DNA of 64,000 bases from Escherichia coli (GTDB taxonomy: Bacteria > Pseudomonadota > Gammaproteobacteria > Enterobacterales > Enterobacteriaceae). Where the stretch lies: NCBI RefSeq assembly GCF_003018255.1, contig NZ_CP027440.1. The stretch is one strand, 5' to 3'. The position numbers are program-made. Below, in pieces: positions 46,101 through 52,100 of the stretch. How positions within the stretch are numbered: the first letter of the stretch is position 1; each line of letters opens with the position of its first letter.

Positions 46101-49100
46101 GCGCGCCTTGCTGGCGAGCGCCTGCAATTTAGTGACAACGGGTTAACACCATTTGGCACCTGTATTGATGAAGTGTATTCCGCCACCGAAGGCCGGATCG
46201 GCAATAAAAAAGTGATTCTGGCCGGGACCAATAATTATCTCGGTTTAACCTTTAATCATGATGCTATCCGCGAAGGTCAGGCAGCGTTAGCGGCCCAAGG
46301 CACTGGCACCACCGGTTCTCGTATGGCAAACGGCAGTTATGCGCCGCATCTGGCGTTAGAGAAAGAGATTGCCGAGTTTTTCAATCGCCCTACCGCTATC
46401 GTTTTTTCAACCGGTTATACCGCTAATTTAGGTGTCATCAGCGCACTTGCCGACCATAACGCCGTGGTGTTACTGGATGCCGACAGCCACGCCAGTATTT
46501 ATGACGCCTGTTCTCTCGGCGGCGCAGAGATTATTCGTTTCCGCCATAATGACGTCAACGATCTGGAACGGCGCATGGTCCGCCTCGGTGAACGGGCGAA
46601 AGAGGCGATTATTATCGTTGAAGGCATCTACAGTATGCTCGGTGACGTTGCGCCGCTGGCAGAAATTGTTGATATCAAACGTCGTCTCGGTGGTTATTTG
46701 ATTGTCGATGAAGCACATTCGTTTGGCGTGTTAGGCGCAACAGGCCGCGGACTGGTTGAAGCCGTTGGCGTTGAAGACGACGTGGATATTATCGTCGGCA
46801 CCTTCAGTAAAAGTTTGGCTTCCATTGGTGGTTTTGCCGTGGGTTCAGAAGCGATGGAAGTGCTGCGCTACGGCAGCCGCCCGTATATTTTTACCGCCTC
46901 TCCTTCTCCGTCCTGCATTGCGACCGTGCGCTCGTCGTTAAGAACCATTTCCACACAACCAGAGCTGCGGCAAAAACTGATGGATAACGCCAACAATCTG
47001 TATGACGGTCTGCAAAAACTGGGTTATGAGTTAAGTTCACATATTAGCCCGGTAGTGCCAGTAATAATCGGTTCGAAAGAGGAAGGTTTACGCATCTGGC
47101 GCGAGCTTATTTCGCTGGGCGTTTATGTGAATCTTATCCTGCCACCTGCCGCGCCTGCAGGCATCACGCTGCTGCGCTGTAGCGTAAACGCTGCCCACAG
47201 TCGTGAGCAAATCGATGCCATCATTCAGGCATTTGCTACTCTGAAGCAGTAATGTGAGCCCGCTGTGGTGTTGCGCCACGGCGGGTTTAATGTTGTCTGT
47301 CATACCAATACACCAGGCTCAACGCCACCAGCACAAACGCTACCGGTAAACCGAGCGCGGTAACAGGTGCGCTCAACGCAAATAACAATCCCAGATTGAC
47401 CATGATTTGATAGCTGATCCAGGTGAGTAAGCCAACGATGACGCCTACAGCGAGACGGCTACCCATCCCAGGCGAACGCGGGGCGCTAAAGGTAAACGGC
47501 ACAGCCAGCAAAATCATCGCCAGGGTCAAGATGGGTTGTCCCAGTTTTTCCCACAGTGCAAGGCGGTATTCGCTGCTGGGTTGCCCGGTTTCCTGCAAAT
47601 AATGGATGTAATGATTAAGTTGACGGACAGAAAAAGTATTTCCCGGCATCGATAACTCTTCAAGATTCATACTGGTGAAGGCCGATTGCCAGGGAAGATT
47701 ATCAGATGTTTCCTGCGTTTCTTTGCCATTCAGCCATTTTTTATGATTCACACCATGCAGGATCCACGTTTTGTCGTCTTCAATGGTAGCACTGCGCGCA
47801 TAAATGTAGGATTCGAGCGAGAGATCATCGCGGTAATGAAATATCTCCACGTCCACCGGCTGGCCCTGCTCGTTCAGCGATTTCACCGTCACAAATTCAT
47901 TACCACGCCTGGCCCACAGCATATTGCCGGTAATGTCATCGTCCTCCCCCAACGCAGTGGCAGTCGATTTGATTTGCAGCGCCTGTTGCTGCAATGGCGA
48001 CGCCACCCACTCATCTATCGCGCCTAATGAAACAGTCCACAATATCCCGGCAACCAGCGCCACCAGTGCAATACGGAAGATAGAAAACCCCGTGCTGCGA
48101 ATGGCGGTAAGCTCACTGTTTTTCGATAACTGCCCCAGGCCGACAATCCCTCCCAATAAGGCGATAAACGGCGAAAGTTCGACCAGTGTGCGCGGTAAGG
48201 TCATCAGCACCACCAGCACCGCCTGAGTCCAGCGATAACCACCCGGGCTGACATCATCCAGTTCGTTAATCAGGTTGAAGGTGGTAAAAAGCGGCAGCAA
48301 TAGCCCTGCGGCGGCGGCAAAACCGAGAAAGAGATGACGGATTAAATAGCGACTGAAAACATTCATCGGGAAAATTTCTGCAGCAAAGAGAAGTCGCGTG
48401 CGACCAACATCAGCAGGCCCATTAGCATGAGTCCGGGTACTAACCACAAACCAGGAATGAGGGGAATCGCGCCGTTAGCCACCAGCGTACGGCAGACGTC
48501 GCCGCCATAAAAAATGGCAACAAACAGCAACGTCAGTGGCAATAACGTTGAAAATCGCCCTTGCCGCGGTTTTACCCGACTTAATGAAATGGCCAGCAGC
48601 GCCATCAACAATGCTGTCAGGCCACGGCTTTGTCGCCATTGCAGTTCGGCATGATCGGCAGGAAAGGCGGAGCGCGCCAGCTCCGTGACCGATTTTGCTT
48701 TGCGTTTGACGTTAGGGCTTTGATCCAGCGGATTCAGATGTAATTGCAGATTACGGTAGATCTGTTCGTTGTCGTCACGCCCCTGATGATCGAGAAGATA
48801 GGCGGTCCCGTTATGCAACATAACGGTCGGTTTCTCAGGTGATGGGTCAACCACATCAACCGAACGGGCGCGGAAAATGCGGGTTCGATTAGCAGTAGAA
48901 GTATAAATCAGCGCATCAGTCAGGCGATTATTATCCTGATCAACCGTCTGCGAAAGGATCATTCGTCCGTTATCGTTAGTGTTAAATTTCTTTGCCCGCA
49001 ACTGGCGAACATCCAGCTCCGACTGTGACTGTTGCTCCAGTTGATAAATCTGCGCATAAGCCCACGGACGACCATACATCGACAGAAGGGTGACAAAAAT

Positions 49101-52100
49101 ACTTAGCGGTATCGCCAGATAAAGAACGGCTTTGTACAAGCGTCCCGGACTGCCCCCCGCCGCAGAGATAGCGGTAATTTCCGAGTCGGTATACATCTGC
49201 CCTAGCGTCACGCCAACTGACACATACAGTCCAACAGGTAACAACATCTCCAGTGCAATCAGCACTTTGTAGAAAACGATATCCAGCACAACATCAAGAG
49301 CTAATGTCCCATTTGCCGCTTCGGTCAGATAACGCTGTGCGGAGTAGCTGGCGAAAATAAAGATCAGAAAACCGACGATAATCAGCACCAGACGGCGCGT
49401 ACCACGCATGATGTAGTGTTCAACCAGCTTCATCTCACTAACGCCCTCAATCCTTTGAATTTTTATTCATTGATCAGCTTCTGCGCCAGCGCAATGACAT
49501 GATCTACCTCTTCCGGCGTCAGGCTGCCGTCCTTTGCCCACTGAATTTGCCCGGTTTTATTCAGCACCAGAATGGTTGAACTCTGCTCCTGCAAGTGCCA
49601 GGCAACGCGTCCCTGTCCATTGCCGTCAATAACGAATTGCGCCCATGGATAGCGGCGTTTATTTTTTTCGATTTTGCCAACGACAAAATAGCCGGTACCA
49701 AAGATGGCATCATCAGTGTTCACAATGGTGGTGGGCTGAAAACGATCCTGCGGAAAGTTTGCCGCTTCAACTGCTTTAATTAACAGTGAGTTCTTTTTCT
49801 TCGCCGACTTACGCCCGGCGATATACTGAATAATGCGAACTTTTCCCGCCAATTGGGTGCTGTTCCACTTTTGGTAGTGAATTTCGTCGTCGCTATTCCG
49901 AAGCAGCTCGCCGCCTTCCTGGATATAAACGGGGGTAACCGTTTTGCCAGTGACGAAATTGTGTGCCTGCACACCCGGGGCTAAGAGCATGATAATCAGC
50001 GCAATAATCAAACGAGATGACATCATTGCTCCGGTTATAGCGGAAAACGCGAAATCAGCAGTTCTAAGCGCTGGCGAATATCGCTATCCAGCGCCATCGG
50101 TGCATCATACGACTGGCGGTTTTCCATATCATCCGCCACCATGTCGTCGTGTTTATCCCCCATCAGGCCATTAATGGCGGCGAGGAAGCGGGAAATCTGT
50201 AACGCTTCTTTATTTTCAGGATCAAGCGATCTTAGGGTGTCGTAATAAGAAACCTGCTGGCTGATGATTTTTCGCACATCATGAAATTCCCTGCCGGTTA
50301 GTCGCGGTTTGGCAATTATCTCTTTCAGGGTATGCATTTGCTTTTGCCGATAGGCAATAAAACCGCTTACGCTTTCTAACTGGCTATGGCGTAATGAATA
50401 GTTCACCAACGACCAGACCGGAGAGCTTAAATAAACCCGTAACAGGTTGCCGTAATACGACACAATATTTTTCTTACCGTTACGAAAGCCGTCCTGAAAA
50501 CGCCCCAAAAAAACGGTCGTTTTGCCGAATAAAAATCCGGCCTGATGCTTCTTTAAATACAGCCGTTGCGCAAAACGCAGGTGCTTGTAGCGCGCTCGCA
50601 TGTATTTAAATTGTTTGCGCTCATCAGCAGTCAGCTCATCGCCTTTGGCCTGTTTGCATATTAAACGCAGTAACTCCTGGCGATTGACGCCATTGAGCCA
50701 GAATTGCAGGCATAACGCGTAATTATCATGGATGATTTCGGTGGTACAACTTAGTGCGATAGTCGGCGGCAAACTGACCTGTGCATCAACGACATCATCT
50801 TCTTCAATCGCAACAAATAGACGCTCGCTCGCCTCTAGCGGGAAATATTTTCTCATCATCAGGATTTCTCTCCGGCTGCGTTATAAAGCAAGGAATGGCG
50901 CTGAAAAAATGCCTTTAAGGTCGGAATTAGCGAAAGCACCACATCCAGACATTGACCACCGAAATAAGCAAACGCTGCTCCCAGCACGCCAAACAGATGA
51001 CAGAACATGAACAGCAATACGATGTAGCCGATTGAGGCGATGGTTTGCGCCACGAGAAAAGCGCGCTGTTTTCCCGCCATCAATAGCAATGACTCCTGAG
51101 GGAAGCCCAGCATCGAGATCACAATTGCGCCCAGCATCACCTGAATCAGGTCATACGCTTCGAGATACTTAACGCCAAACACCAGCGAAATGAGCGGCTT
51201 GCCGACAATCAACACCGCGAGCGCCACCAGAATACCGATTCCGCCCGCCAGTAAACCTGACTTCACGCCTAACAACCACGGTCTGGTGGTACGCGGATCT
51301 AAACGCATCACCTCTGGGTAAAAACTTTTGCCCAGTAAACCCGCTGGCGTTCCGGCGGCGTCGAAGAATGTCATGGCGATTTTAAATAACCCGGCGGCAG
51401 CGGGTCCTAACACGATCCCCACCAACACTGTGCTGCACGAATTACGCGCCGACCAGATGGAATGGGCAATGTTGGTTGACCAGACAAAACTCCACGCGCC
51501 TTTGATGTGTCGGGCAGACTCAAACAGATTCAATTTGAACGCGTTATGGATATTTCTGCGGCGTAATTCACGTGCGGCAAACCACCAGTACATGGTGCCG
51601 CCAACAAGATTCGAGGCGTACCAGGCAATAACAAAACCCGCAAAACCAAAGTCAAAATACCAGGCAACGACGCTCCCCGCTGCGCGCAGAAAAGGTTTCG
51701 TCGCTTGCTGTACAGCAATTAGATCGAAGCGATCTACCGCACGCAGAATGCCGGTCGGCGTGGAGGAAGCCATTGAAGGAATGAGCGTGCAATACAGCGC
51801 TGCCAGCCAAAAGCTTTGGTCATCCAGACCTAATGAATGGGAAAGAAAAGGGAGTAAGGCAATGCCGCCGACAATCGCCACCGCGCCGCTGACGATATCC
51901 AGCGAGAAGGAAAATGAGACGACATTGCGGAATTGCTGCGGATTATTGTTGGTTAATGCTGGTGTTCCGTACTGAACCACCAGCTGCCATGTCTGAAACT
52001 TAATAAAATCGCTGATCGACTTGGCGTACGATTGTACAATCACCAGTACGCCAAACATGGCGGGCGTCATCCCTTTACCGGCACACGAGAGCGCCAACAG

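What the first reader, a model, noticed from the sequence alone, without database searches (positions are those of the whole stretch)
47287..49433. Second LptF/LptG-like permease pair with no adjacent ABC ATPase
Two overlapping genes (ATGA junction at 48363-48366) encode YjgP/YjgQ-family permeases resembling LptF (TLGQMYTDSEITAISAAGGSP) and LptG. The essential lptFG pair lies elsewhere in E. coli, so these are paralogs. They sit convergent to the biosynthetic operon and in the same transcription unit as a flippase. No nucleotide-binding ABC component is encoded nearby; yghR/S/T lack an ABC signature and are too short. One hypothesis is that this pair extracts the locus-specific lipid from the inner membrane, borrowing LptB or another ATPase.
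Basis: partly seen in the sequence, partly recalled or inferred. Interest (0 to 1): 0.75.

Follow-up and report, generated by a model that had tools for sequence, protein, structure and literature searches.

The report
Sphingolipid-locus LptF/LptG paralog pair
Most E. coli strains (though not K-12) carry a second, intact copy of the LptF/LptG lipid-extractor permeases inside a sphingolipid-synthesis gene cluster. It has no ATPase of its own, an arrangement already published for Caulobacter, where the pair borrows the LPS ATPase LptB.

Summary
Two translationally coupled minus-strand genes, lptF2 (48363-49433) and lptG2 (47287-48366), overlap at an ATGA. They pass NCBIfam's curated LptF and LptG cut-offs and align full-length to solved LptF/LptG chains.

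- **Paralogs, not the housekeeping pair.** They are about 28-30% identical to canonical LptF/G. Canonical lptFG is in 5425 of 5426 complete E. coli genomes; this pair is in 4131. K-12 lost it to an IS5-associated deletion.
- **Intact.** dN/dS is 0.03-0.09.
- **No ATPase.** The 64-kb window has no ABC ATPase, LptB or LptC homolog. None of 78 related loci has a dedicated LptB paralog.
- **Tied to sphingolipid synthesis.** In 57 of 59 loci with complete flanks, Spt lies within 10 kb.

The 2026 preprint draws the E. coli UTI89 locus, so I rate the finding already known, though untested in E. coli.

The E. coli-type module lacks the Caulobacter head-group genes. It has three thymidylate-kinase-like proteins, a CHAD-like protein and a cysteine-free YtfJ-like protein instead, so the exported lipid is undefined.

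The parts
47287..48366 (-). lptG2: LptG-family permease paralog, 359 aa, ATG start at 48366
   Evidence: TIGR04408 310.1 bits against a cut-off of 240. PF03739 E 9.9e-70. Matches solved LptG chains at E about 3e-41 over residues 3-351. 28% identical to K-12 LptG. Six hydrophobic segments in a 3+3 layout. dN/dS 0.06-0.07.
48363..49433 (-). lptF2: LptF-family permease paralog, 356 aa
   Evidence: TIGR04407 319.8 bits against a cut-off of 230. PF03739 E 2.6e-54. Matches solved LptF chains at E about 6e-32. About 30% identical to K-12 LptF. dN/dS 0.03-0.09.
48363..48366 (-). ATGA stop/start overlap of lptF2 and lptG2 (translational coupling)
   Evidence: Read directly from the sequence. The canonical lptF/lptG pair also overlaps, by 1 nt.
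47255..47289 (.). GC-rich 16-bp-stem hairpin between the convergent spt and lptG2 stop codons; a likely bidirectional terminator
   Evidence: Top-ranked terminator-like site in the scan. This is a pattern match only.
49463..50026 (-). YtfJ-family periplasmic protein, 187 aa, with a signal-peptide-like N-terminus and no cysteine; same operon
   Evidence: TIGR01626 212.5 bits against a cut-off of 151. AF2 pLDDT 87. Thioredoxin-like fold by Foldseek, E 3e-7. Zero Cys. Present in 45 of 78 related loci.
50035..50859 (-). CHAD-like all-alpha cytoplasmic protein, 274 aa, annotated 'hypothetical'; same operon
50859..52208 (-). yghQ: MOP-family (Polysacc_synt) flippase candidate, 449 aa; truncated in K-12
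   Evidence: Weak NF007773 MOP flippase hit. Homologs carry Pfam Polysacc_synt. K-12 keeps only 1068 nt beside IS5.
52254..53757 (-). yghR (52254-53012) and yghS (53044-53757): paralogous thymidylate-kinase-like P-loop proteins, not ABC NBDs
   Evidence: Weak dTMP-kinase hits below cut-off. Walker A plus a DR[YF]PQ motif, with no LSGGQ. Pfam gives only P-loop-level hits.
53932..54624 (+). yghT: third paralog of yghR/yghS, transcribed divergently
   Evidence: 34-42% identity within the trio. dTMP-kinase-like.
43165..47252 (+). Ceramide-synthesis operon: aasR (43165-44889), cerR/epi (44886-45800), acpR (45832-46080) and spt (46080-47252)
   Evidence: Spt scores 597.9 bits on NF047599 against a cut-off of 500. 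PGAP annotation. The E. coli BL21 orthologs ECD_02851-02854 are biochemically characterised in PMC9386255.
41651..42793 (-). yghO: homolog of the bacterial ceramide synthase (N-acyltransferase 'aca'/bCerS)
   Evidence: Assigned as the CC_1154 ortholog in PMC9386255. Co-occurs with LptG2 in 55 of 78 loci.

Best explanation
lptF2-lptG2 encode the two membrane subunits of a dedicated extractor for the sphingolipid made by this locus.

Proposed steps:
1. YghO, AasR, CerR, AcpR and Spt make ceramide on the cytoplasmic face of the inner membrane.
2. A head group is added by locus enzymes, probably including the three YghR/S/T kinases.
3. The lipid is flipped, most likely by the MOP-family protein YghQ.
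4. An LptF2-LptG2 heterodimer extracts it from the outer leaflet of the inner membrane. The heterodimer is powered by a dimer of the housekeeping ATPase LptB, which docks on the conserved coupling helices.
5. The periplasmic beta-jellyroll domains hand the lipid on, probably to the shared LptC/LptA/LptDE bridge, for delivery to the outer membrane.

Shown here: family membership, intactness, paralogy, absence of a cognate ATPase, and tight linkage to spt across about 60 species.

Shown elsewhere, in Caulobacter only: F2-G2 complex formation, co-purification with LptB, and lethality of deletion unless sphingolipid synthesis is blocked.

Inferred: every functional step in E. coli, the identity of the lipid, and use of the Lpt bridge.
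For: - **Family.** Both proteins pass the curated LptF and LptG HMM cut-offs and align full-length to solved structures.
- **Coupling helices.** The coupling-helix glutamates are conserved: LptF2 E85 matches LptF E84, and LptG2 E85 matches LptG E88. They are invariant in 45/45 and 71/71 clade members. This region is the most canonical-like part of LptF2, at 48% identity against about 30% overall.
- **No ATPase.** There is no ABC NBD, LptB or LptC homolog in the 64-kb window. In 78 related loci there is no LptC and no conserved stand-alone LptB-like NBD. The LptB-like hits are fused 6-TM MsbA-type proteins or unrelated distant genes.
- **Linkage to sphingolipid synthesis.** LptF2 accompanies LptG2 in 77 of 78 loci. 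Spt is within 10 kb in 57 of 59 loci with full flanks, and all 59 carry at least one ceramide gene. Metagenomic relatives down to 37% identity are also spt-linked. A representative from the bulk of the tree sits in the canonical pepA-lptF-lptG context.
- **Selection.** dN/dS is 0.03-0.09. The pair is intact in 4105 of 5426 genomes.
- **Cavity residues.** Four cationic cavity residues that contact the lipid A phosphates in LptB2FG (PMC6744409) are invariant in the clade: LptF R33, LptF K317 (as R/K), LptG K62 (as R) and LptG R136 (as K/R). This fits an anionic lipid.
- **Biochemistry and precedent.** E. coli SPT, AcpR and AasR are active (PMC9386255).
Against: - There are no experimental data on the E. 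coli pair. I found no report that E. coli makes a sphingolipid.
- Sequence relatedness to the characterised Caulobacter pair is weak. Clade members from A. vinelandii and P. luteola are only 24-25% identical to CC_1156/CC_1155 (S2 Table of PMC11324152). A common origin and a shared LptB-binding property are therefore assumed, not shown.
- The beta-jellyroll domains are only 20-24% identical to the canonical ones, so docking onto LptC/LptA is uncertain.
- I could not search whole genomes for an unlinked second lptB.
- The pair is dispensable: K-12 and about 24% of genomes lack it.
Confidence: 0.65

Rival explanations
1. LptF2-LptG2 extract the locus lipid but are powered by an ATPase other than LptB. 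This could be an unlinked ABC NBD, or a non-ABC P-loop protein of the locus (YghR/S/T).
For: No cognate ATPase is encoded nearby, so the partner is open. Three P-loop proteins of NBD-like size (230-252 aa) sit in the same transcription unit or next to it.
Against: YghR/S/T have a Walker A and a thymidylate-kinase DR[YF] motif. They lack a Q-loop, an LSGGQ signature and any real ABC_tran match. They are absent from 27 of 33 non-Enterobacterales-type LptF2G2 loci, so they cannot be the general partner. The coupling helices keep the canonical Glu and are the most LptF-like region. In Caulobacter the partner is LptB.
Confidence: 0.1
2. The pair is a second exporter for LPS, an LPS variant or another glycolipid. 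Its position next to spt is incidental.
For: PGAP names the genes 'LPS export ABC transporter permease LptF/LptG'. Several LPS-phosphate-contacting residues are retained. One in-clade relative (P0288, L097) lies beside glycosyltransferases and lpxC, with no spt within 10 kb.
Against: Spt linkage holds in 57 of 59 full-flank loci across Enterobacterales, Pseudomonadaceae, Nitrococcus and Betaproteobacteria, despite rearrangement of the two halves of the locus. The pair is lost together with the sphingolipid genes in K-12. Canonical lptFG is universal and sufficient for LPS.
Confidence: 0.07
3. The locus is cryptic in E. coli. The genes are intact but silent under natural conditions, so the pair has no current physiological role.
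For: About 24% of complete genomes lack the pair. K-12 lost it to IS5. Strain SW07091 deleted lptG2 through most of the CHAD-like gene. Truncated forms exist in Shigella and some E. coli. I found no report of an E. coli sphingolipid.
Against: dN/dS of 0.03-0.09, with synonymous divergence up to 0.33, shows long-term purifying selection. The whole 12-gene module is conserved across many Enterobacterales genera at 50-75% identity.
Confidence: 0.08
4. LptF2 or LptG2 form mixed dimers with canonical LptG or LptF, or titrate LptB. They would act as modulators of LPS export rather than as an independent transporter.
For: All four proteins share the fold and the coupling-helix motif. Sharing LptB implies competition.
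Against: F2 and G2 are always co-encoded and translationally coupled (77 of 78 loci; adjacent in all cases). Identity to the canonical partners is under 31%. In Caulobacter, F2 and G2 pull each other down.
Confidence: 0.05

Closest known systems
Caulobacter crescentus LptF2/LptG2 (CCNA_01214/CCNA_01213 = CC_1156/CC_1155). Named in Olea-Ozuna et al. 2024 (PMC11324152); characterised in Uchendu, Isom and Klein 2026 (bioRxiv 10.64898/2026.04.12.717747).
   Same: A second LptF/LptG pair encoded in the spt/ceramide locus, alongside a canonical lptFG elsewhere. There is no lptB in the locus, and a candidate flippase is nearby. The 2026 preprint's Fig. 2B shows the E. coli UTI89 locus next to the Caulobacter one.
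   Different: - Sequence relation is weak. Clade members are reported at 24-25% identity to the Caulobacter proteins, and I retrieved no alphaproteobacterial member.
- E. coli has no LptC2.
- The head-group genes are entirely different. Caulobacter has a DAGK-type ceramide kinase, a CDP-alcohol transferase, nucleotidyltransferases and a phosphoesterase. E. coli has YghR/S/T, a CHAD-like protein and a YtfJ-like protein.
- Nothing has been tested experimentally in E. coli.
Canonical LPS extractor LptB2FGC of E. coli and relatives (for example PDB 6MHU, 6S8H, 5X5Y)
   Same: Same Pfam and NCBIfam families. Full-length collinearity with three TM segments, a periplasmic domain and three more TM segments. 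Conserved coupling-helix Glu. Adjacent, overlapping F-G genes. Retention of LptF R33 and K317 and of LptG K62 and R136.
   Different: - Only 28-30% identical.
- Not in the pepA-lptFG context.
- Accessory rather than universal (76% against about 100% of genomes).
- LptG K34, K40, K41 and R133 are replaced by D/N, D/E, D and L.
- The beta-jellyroll is strongly diverged.
spt-linked LptF2G2 of Pseudomonas, Azotobacter, Nitrococcus and Betaproteobacteria in CPG2-type loci (A. vinelandii Avin_44330/44340; P. luteola FOB45_16320/16325 in PMC11324152)
   Same: Same LptG2 clade as E. coli, at 45-58% identity (L054-L095). Same aasR-cerR-acpR-spt order. Same absence of LptB and LptC.
   Different: These loci carry the Caulobacter-type head-group genes. 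Many have a fused MsbA-type ABC protein instead of the MOP flippase (14 of 33). They lack the YtfJ-like and CHAD-like genes, and mostly lack YghR/S/T.

Membership tests
LptF/LptG permease family (Pfam PF03739; NCBIfam TIGR04407 LptF, TIGR04408 LptG) | Scores above the curated whole-protein HMM cut-offs, each protein best on its own subfamily model | tested here: met
   LptF2 scores 319.8 bits on LptF (cut-off 230) and 68.9 on LptG. LptG2 scores 310.1 bits on LptG (cut-off 240) and 88.1 on LptF. PF03739 matches nearly end to end.
LptF/LptG permease family (Pfam PF03739; NCBIfam TIGR04407 LptF, TIGR04408 LptG) | Architecture of three TM helices, a periplasmic domain of about 150 aa, then three TM helices, collinear with solved LptF/LptG | tested here: met
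   phmmer alignments cover residues 4-353 and 3-351 of solved chains. The hydropathy layout is 3 + gap + 3 for LptG2 and 3 + gap + 2 strong segments for LptF2, whose TM4 falls just under the threshold. I did not predict a 3D model for these two proteins.
LptF/LptG permease family (Pfam PF03739; NCBIfam TIGR04407 LptF, TIGR04408 LptG) | Conserved glutamate in the cytoplasmic coupling helix that contacts the NBD (LptF E84, LptG E88) | tested here: met
   LptF2 E85 and LptG2 E85 align to these positions. They are invariant in 45/45 and 71/71 clade sequences, and in 128/129 wider LptG-like representatives. That these Glu residues contact LptB is from my own knowledge of the Lpt literature, not from a paper read here.
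Canonical LPS exporter LptB2FGC (functional identity) | Housekeeping locus (pepA-lptF-lptG) and universal presence | tested here: not met
   The canonical pair is at pepA in K-12 and in 5425 of 5426 genomes. This pair is beside spt, occurs in 4131 of 5426 genomes, and is absent from K-12.
Canonical LPS exporter LptB2FGC (functional identity) | Residues that bind the lipid A phosphates and core (LptG K34, K40, K41, K62, R133, R136; LptF R33, K317, K322; PMC6744409) | tested here: inconclusive
   LptF R33 and K317 and LptG K62 and R136 are kept. LptG K34, K40, K41 and R133 and LptF K322 are lost. K34, K40 and K41 are also D/E in most other LptG-like representatives and appear to be absent from the solved P. 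aeruginosa LptG. The pattern therefore does not discriminate between substrates.
Sphingolipid-locus LptF2/LptG2 transporter (Caulobacter type) | Encoded within the spt/ceramide-synthesis locus, in addition to a canonical lptFG elsewhere | tested here: met
   spt ends 35 nt from lptG2. Spt is within 10 kb in 57 of 59 full-flank related loci. The canonical pair is elsewhere.
Sphingolipid-locus LptF2/LptG2 transporter (Caulobacter type) | No cognate lptB in the locus | tested here: met
   There is no ABC signature or LptB hit in the 64-kb window. No conserved stand-alone NBD appears in 78 related loci. Absence of a second lptB elsewhere in the genome was not tested.
Sphingolipid-locus LptF2/LptG2 transporter (Caulobacter type) | Sequence orthology to CCNA_01214/CCNA_01213 | tested here: inconclusive
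   I could not obtain the Caulobacter sequences. The genome scan returned only gamma- and betaproteobacteria. Published BLASTP values for clade members against the Caulobacter proteins are 24-25% identity, E 1e-6 to 1e-13. That is no higher than identity to canonical LptFG.
Sphingolipid-locus LptF2/LptG2 transporter (Caulobacter type) | F2-G2 complex that binds LptB; deletion is lethal unless spt or anionic head-group synthesis is removed | not testable with these tools
   Shown only for Caulobacter. It would need pull-downs and genetics in an spt-positive E. coli strain.
Sphingolipid-locus LptF2/LptG2 transporter (Caulobacter type) | Accompanying LptC2 | tested here: not met
   No LptC homolog occurs in the window or in any of the 78 loci. 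The two accessory proteins have thioredoxin-like and CHAD-like folds. The preprint itself says LptC2 is restricted to Caulobacter, so this feature does not define the wider class.

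The most novel reading that the evidence does not exclude
The Enterobacterales version of the locus makes a sphingolipid with a new head group, possibly oligophosphate or otherwise highly phosphorylated. The head group would be built by three thymidylate-kinase-like enzymes (YghR/S/T) with the help of a CHAD-type polyphosphate-binding protein.

LptF2G2 would export this lipid by sharing not only LptB but the whole LptC/A/DE bridge with LPS. About three quarters of E. 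coli strains could then place a previously unrecognised anionic sphingolipid in their outer membrane under some condition.

A second open possibility is that the gamma/beta LptF2G2 clade and the alphaproteobacterial pairs were recruited independently from lptFG.
Probability: 0.2. Interest if true: 0.7.

Novelty: already known. Interest (0 to 1): 0.3.

Why it matters
The pair and its interpretation are already in the literature. Olea-Ozuna et al. 2024 named LptC2/F2/G2. The 2026 Klein-lab preprint showed the F2-G2-LptB complex in Caulobacter and drew the E. coli UTI89 locus.

The remaining value lies in E. coli itself:
- E. coli is the organism in which Lpt biochemistry is best developed. An spt-positive strain would allow direct tests of how one ATPase, and perhaps one periplasmic bridge, serves two different lipids.
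- It would also allow a test of whether E. coli makes a sphingolipid at all.
- The head-group genes differ completely from those of Caulobacter, so the exported molecule is unknown.
- PGAP currently gives these paralogs the same names as the essential lptF/lptG. This is misleading for annotation-based analyses.

Tried and rejected
1. **Loss of LptG K34/K40/K41 as evidence for a non-LPS substrate.** In the pairwise alignment these become N/D/D. The same positions are D/E in most LptG-like representatives and appear to be so in solved P. aeruginosa LptG. I rejected this as a diagnostic.
2. **YghR/S/T as cryptic ABC NBDs or PPK2-type polyP kinases.** They give only P-loop and weak thymidylate-kinase matches, with no ABC signature and no PPK2 hit. 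They are absent from most non-enterobacterial loci.
3. **The YtfJ-like protein or the 274-aa protein as LptC/LptA-type jellyrolls.** Their folds are thioredoxin-like and CHAD-like.
4. **LptB-like tblastn hits in 24 of 78 related loci.** These are fused 6-TM MsbA-type proteins at a conserved position, or unrelated stand-alone NBDs 5-9 kb away.
5. **The GTG start at 48447 for lptG2.** The ATG at 48366 fits homolog lengths and PGAP.
6. **Anti-phage defence.** PADLOC gave nothing meaningful for six locus proteins.
7. **Alignment A1 (15 sequences).** It was too diverse for the genome scan, so I used A2 instead.
8. **Caulobacter and Sphingomonas LptF2/G2 sequences.** I could not obtain them, and no alphaproteobacteria were returned. 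Orthology to the characterised pair stays unresolved.
9. **Pfam on the CHAD-like protein and all 23 of its homologs.** It found nothing. The CHAD assignment rests on structure comparison only.

Full report
**Observation.** lptF2 spans 48363-49433 (356 aa) and lptG2 spans 47287-48366 (359 aa). They overlap at an ATGA (48363-48366) that joins the stop of the first to the start of the second. The quoted peptide is at residues 76-96 of LptF2. The mechanical ORF finder extends lptG2 to a GTG at 48447. PGAP and the 359-aa length of homologs support the ATG at 48366.

**Family.**
- LptF2 scores 319.8 bits on NCBIfam TIGR04407 LptF (curated cut-off 230). LptG2 scores 310.1 bits on TIGR04408 LptG (cut-off 240). 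Each scores far lower on the other model.
- Pfam PF03739 matches both almost end to end.
- Both align over essentially their full length to solved LptF and LptG chains from Pseudomonas, Vibrio, Klebsiella, Enterobacter, Shigella and E. coli, at E about 6e-32 and 3e-41.
- Against K-12 LptF and LptG they are about 30% and 28% identical.
- Hydropathy shows the expected three TM segments, a periplasmic domain of about 150-180 residues, then three more TM segments.

**Where this is.** The window is E. coli. The query region is 100% identical to strain 104. The order is glcDEFGB, glcC, yghO, then aasR-cerR-acpR-spt on the plus strand. Convergent with that, on the minus strand, are yghS-yghR-yghQ, a 274-aa gene, a ytfJ-like gene, lptF2 and lptG2. 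yghT and pitB follow.
- Spt passes the NCBIfam serine palmitoyltransferase cut-off, at 597.9 bits against 500.
- Padilla-Gomez et al. 2022 (PMC9386255) showed that the E. coli BL21 orthologs (ECD_02850-02854) encode an active SPT, a specialised ACP and its acyl-ACP synthetase. They assign yghO as the ceramide N-acyltransferase.
- In K-12, an IS5 element replaces everything between yghO and a 5'-truncated yghQ. This explains why the locus is little known.

**Paralogy, distribution and intactness.**
- Canonical lptFG sits at pepA in K-12 and is found in 5425 of 5426 complete E. coli genomes.
- The spt-linked pair is found in 4131 of 5426 genomes, with at least 80% coverage in 4105. PGAP labels it simply lptF/lptG.
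- Among four alleles, dN/dS is 0.03-0.09 for both genes, with dS up to 0.33. This is strong purifying selection. The genes are not pseudogenes, although occasional strains and Shigella carry deletions or truncations.

**No ATPase.**
- A six-frame scan of the whole 64-kb window finds no ABC signature motif. tblastn with LptB and LptC finds nothing beyond a Walker A in gspE. PGAP lists no ABC ATPase across the window.
- YghR/S/T are 230-252 aa, about the size of LptB (241 aa), so 'too short' is not the reason to exclude them.
- They have a Walker A and a thymidylate-kinase-type DR[YF]PQ motif. They give only P-loop and weak dTMP-kinase matches.

**Comparative genomics.**
- The closest relatives, at 64-76% identity, occur throughout Enterobacterales.
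- In Serratia and Hafnia the whole 12-gene module is conserved, although the two halves are arranged differently.
- An exhaustive representative search shows a gap between hits at 44-50% identity and a continuum at or below 37%.
- The contexts of P0246, P0247, P0261 and P0299 (about 34-45% identity) all contain aasR-cerR-acpR-spt. P0252 has the same neighbours on a truncated contig. P0281, from the bulk of the tree, lies in a canonical pepA-lptF-lptG-holC-valS context. Two cases have no spt nearby: P0251, and P0288, which lies inside the clade.
- In a neighbour-joining tree the spt-linked sequences form a 16-leaf clade with a 7-leaf sister. The clade excludes E. coli LptG. This is a distance tree without support values.
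- The one genome-collection scan returned 78 loci from Enterobacterales, Pseudomonas, Stutzerimonas, Azotobacter, Azomonas, Nitrococcus and Betaproteobacteria.
- LptF2 is adjacent in 77 of 78 loci. Spt is within 10 kb in 64 of 78, and in 57 of the 59 with complete flanks. All 59 have at least one ceramide gene. LptC is never present.
- LptB-like hits at 25-35% identity occur in 24 loci. In Pseudomonas and betaproteobacterial loci they are fused 570-590-aa proteins with six TM segments and a C-terminal NBD (MsbA type), at a conserved position. These are plausibly the flippase that replaces YghQ. The few stand-alone NBDs are 5-9 kb away at non-conserved positions.

**Residues.**
- The coupling-helix glutamates are conserved and invariant in the clade. 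The coupling-helix region is the part of LptF2 most like canonical LptF, at 48% identity. The periplasmic jellyroll is the least similar part, at 20-24%.
- Tang et al. 2019 (PMC6744409) list the residues that contact the lipid A phosphates. Of these, LptF R33 and K317 and LptG K62 and R136 are invariantly basic in the clade. LptG K34, K40, K41 and R133 are D/N, D/E, D and L.
- I first read the loss of the TM1 lysines as a sign of a different substrate. These positions are also acidic in most other LptG-like representatives, and they appear to be so in solved P. aeruginosa LptG. They are therefore not diagnostic.
- The retained basic residues are compatible with an anionic lipid. This is an inference.

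**Operon partners.**
- Gene spacing from yghS to lptG2 is 31, 45, -1, 8, 29 and -4 nt. The only strong terminator-like hairpin lies after lptG2. A single transcription unit is likely but not shown.
- The YtfJ-like protein (TIGR01626) is predicted with pLDDT 87 to have a thioredoxin-like fold, and it has no cysteine.
- Its AlphaFold-DB neighbours, at TM above 0.9 and 26-42% identity, are annotated CHAD-domain proteins. They come from Sphingomonas, Zymomonas, Gluconobacter, Acetobacter, Komagataeibacter and Pseudomonas. Three of these genera (Sphingomonas, Zymomonas, Gluconobacter) are listed as spt-carrying in PMC9386255.
- CHAD domains bind inorganic polyphosphate (PMC6537752).
- Neither protein is an LptC/LptA-type jellyroll.

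**Literature and novelty.**
- Olea-Ozuna et al. 2024 (PMC11324152) named the Caulobacter genes LptC2, LptF2 and LptG2 and proposed that they transport phosphosphingolipids.
- Uchendu, Isom and Klein (bioRxiv, April 2026) showed that the three genes can be deleted only when spt or cpgB is absent. They also showed that LptF2 and LptG2 co-purify with each other and with the sole LptB. They state that lptF2/G2 occur in many alpha- and gammaproteobacterial sphingolipid loci, and their Fig. 2B shows the E. coli UTI89 locus.
Only the E. coli system is untested.
- Two caveats limit transfer of the Caulobacter results. First, the A. vinelandii and P. luteola pairs, which fall in the E. coli clade at 48-49% identity, are reported as only 24-25% identical to CC_1156/CC_1155. 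Second, the E. coli-type module has none of the CPG2 head-group genes: the DAGK-type kinase, the CDP-alcohol transferase, the nucleotidyltransferases and the phosphoesterase. The Pseudomonas, Azotobacter and betaproteobacterial members of the clade do have them.

**Mechanism and confidence.** The best-supported reading is an LptB-powered LptF2-LptG2 extractor for the locus sphingolipid. It would act after flipping by YghQ and hand the lipid on through its jellyroll domains, probably to the shared Lpt bridge.
- Family membership, paralogy, intactness, lack of a cognate ATPase and spt linkage are shown here.
- The protein interactions are shown only in Caulobacter.
- Everything functional in E. 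coli is inferred.

I put this at about 0.65. The remainder is split among a different ATPase partner, a non-sphingolipid substrate, a cryptic locus, and a modulatory role.

Noticed in passing
[not shown]
   Followed up: partly
window 49463-50026 (minus strand): The YtfJ-family protein immediately upstream of lptF2 has a thioredoxin-like predicted fold and no cysteine, so it cannot be a redox enzyme. It has a signal-peptide-like N-terminus and co-occurs with the Enterobacterales-type module (45 of 78 loci). Its role is unknown.
   Followed up: partly
window 52254-54624: yghR, yghS and yghT are three paralogs (34-42% identical) with a Walker A and a thymidylate-kinase-like DR[YF]PQ motif. They replace the DAGK-type ceramide kinase of Caulobacter-type loci. 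The phosphate transporter gene pitB lies next door in E. coli, and a PHO4 gene does in Hafnia. This hints at an unusual phosphorylated head group.
   Followed up: partly
L004 (K-12 NC_000913.3 3130146-3131340), corresponding to window about 42800-51100: In K-12 an IS5 element (insH9) sits where aasR, cerR, acpR, spt, lptG2, lptF2, the ytfJ-like gene, the CHAD-like gene and the 5' end of yghQ would be. The K-12 genes 'yghO' and 'yghQ' are remnants of this locus.
   Followed up: yes
L010 (strain SW07091): This strain keeps cerR-acpR-spt but has deleted lptG2, lptF2, the ytfJ-like gene and most of the CHAD-like gene. Its aasR is truncated and abuts truncated gsp genes, so synthesis and export have been lost together.
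   Followed up: partly
window about 47287-47900 (3' part of lptG2): Between this strain and L007/L008, lptG2 has dS of about 0.3 while the adjacent lptF2 has dS of about 0.05. The differences are concentrated in the 3' ~600 nt of lptG2. This suggests two old allele classes or a recombination tract ending inside lptG2.
   Followed up: partly
proteins P0121-P0133, P0225-P0235: Rare E. coli gene calls fuse the YtfJ-like protein to LptF2 (about 553 aa) or LptF2 to PitB or AasR fragments. Shigella boydii and some E. coli carry a 238-aa truncated LptF2. These are probably frameshifts or deletions.
   Followed up: no
L054, L062-L064, L067-L069, L073, L083, L084, L091, L095 at about 500-2700; L082 and L088 at about 15000-16900: Pseudomonas and betaproteobacterial spt loci carry a fused 6-TM plus NBD (MsbA-type) ABC protein at a conserved position and lack the MOP flippase yghQ. 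Two different flippase solutions seem to serve the same LptF2G2 extractor.
   Followed up: partly
L097 (P0288): This LptFG pair lies inside the spt-linked clade, next to a DAGK-type kinase, several glycosyltransferases, a MOP flippase, an inositol-1-phosphate synthase and lpxC-ftsZ. There is no spt within 10 kb. It may be a different lipid, or spt may lie elsewhere in that genome.
   Followed up: no
L064 (MAG labelled Pseudomonas sp.): Its YghR/S/T homologs are 69-72% identical to those of E. coli, whereas its LptF2/G2 and Spt are at typical Pseudomonas levels (54% and 73%). This points to horizontal transfer or a chimeric bin.
   Followed up: no
window about 400-31700: The rest of the window holds the sslE/T2SS-beta (gsp) cluster (about 15200-31700) and a CP4-like island with cbtA/cbeA and relE/parD toxin-antitoxin genes, an antirestriction gene and IS1 remnants (about 400-14800). 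These are unrelated to the finding.
   Followed up: no
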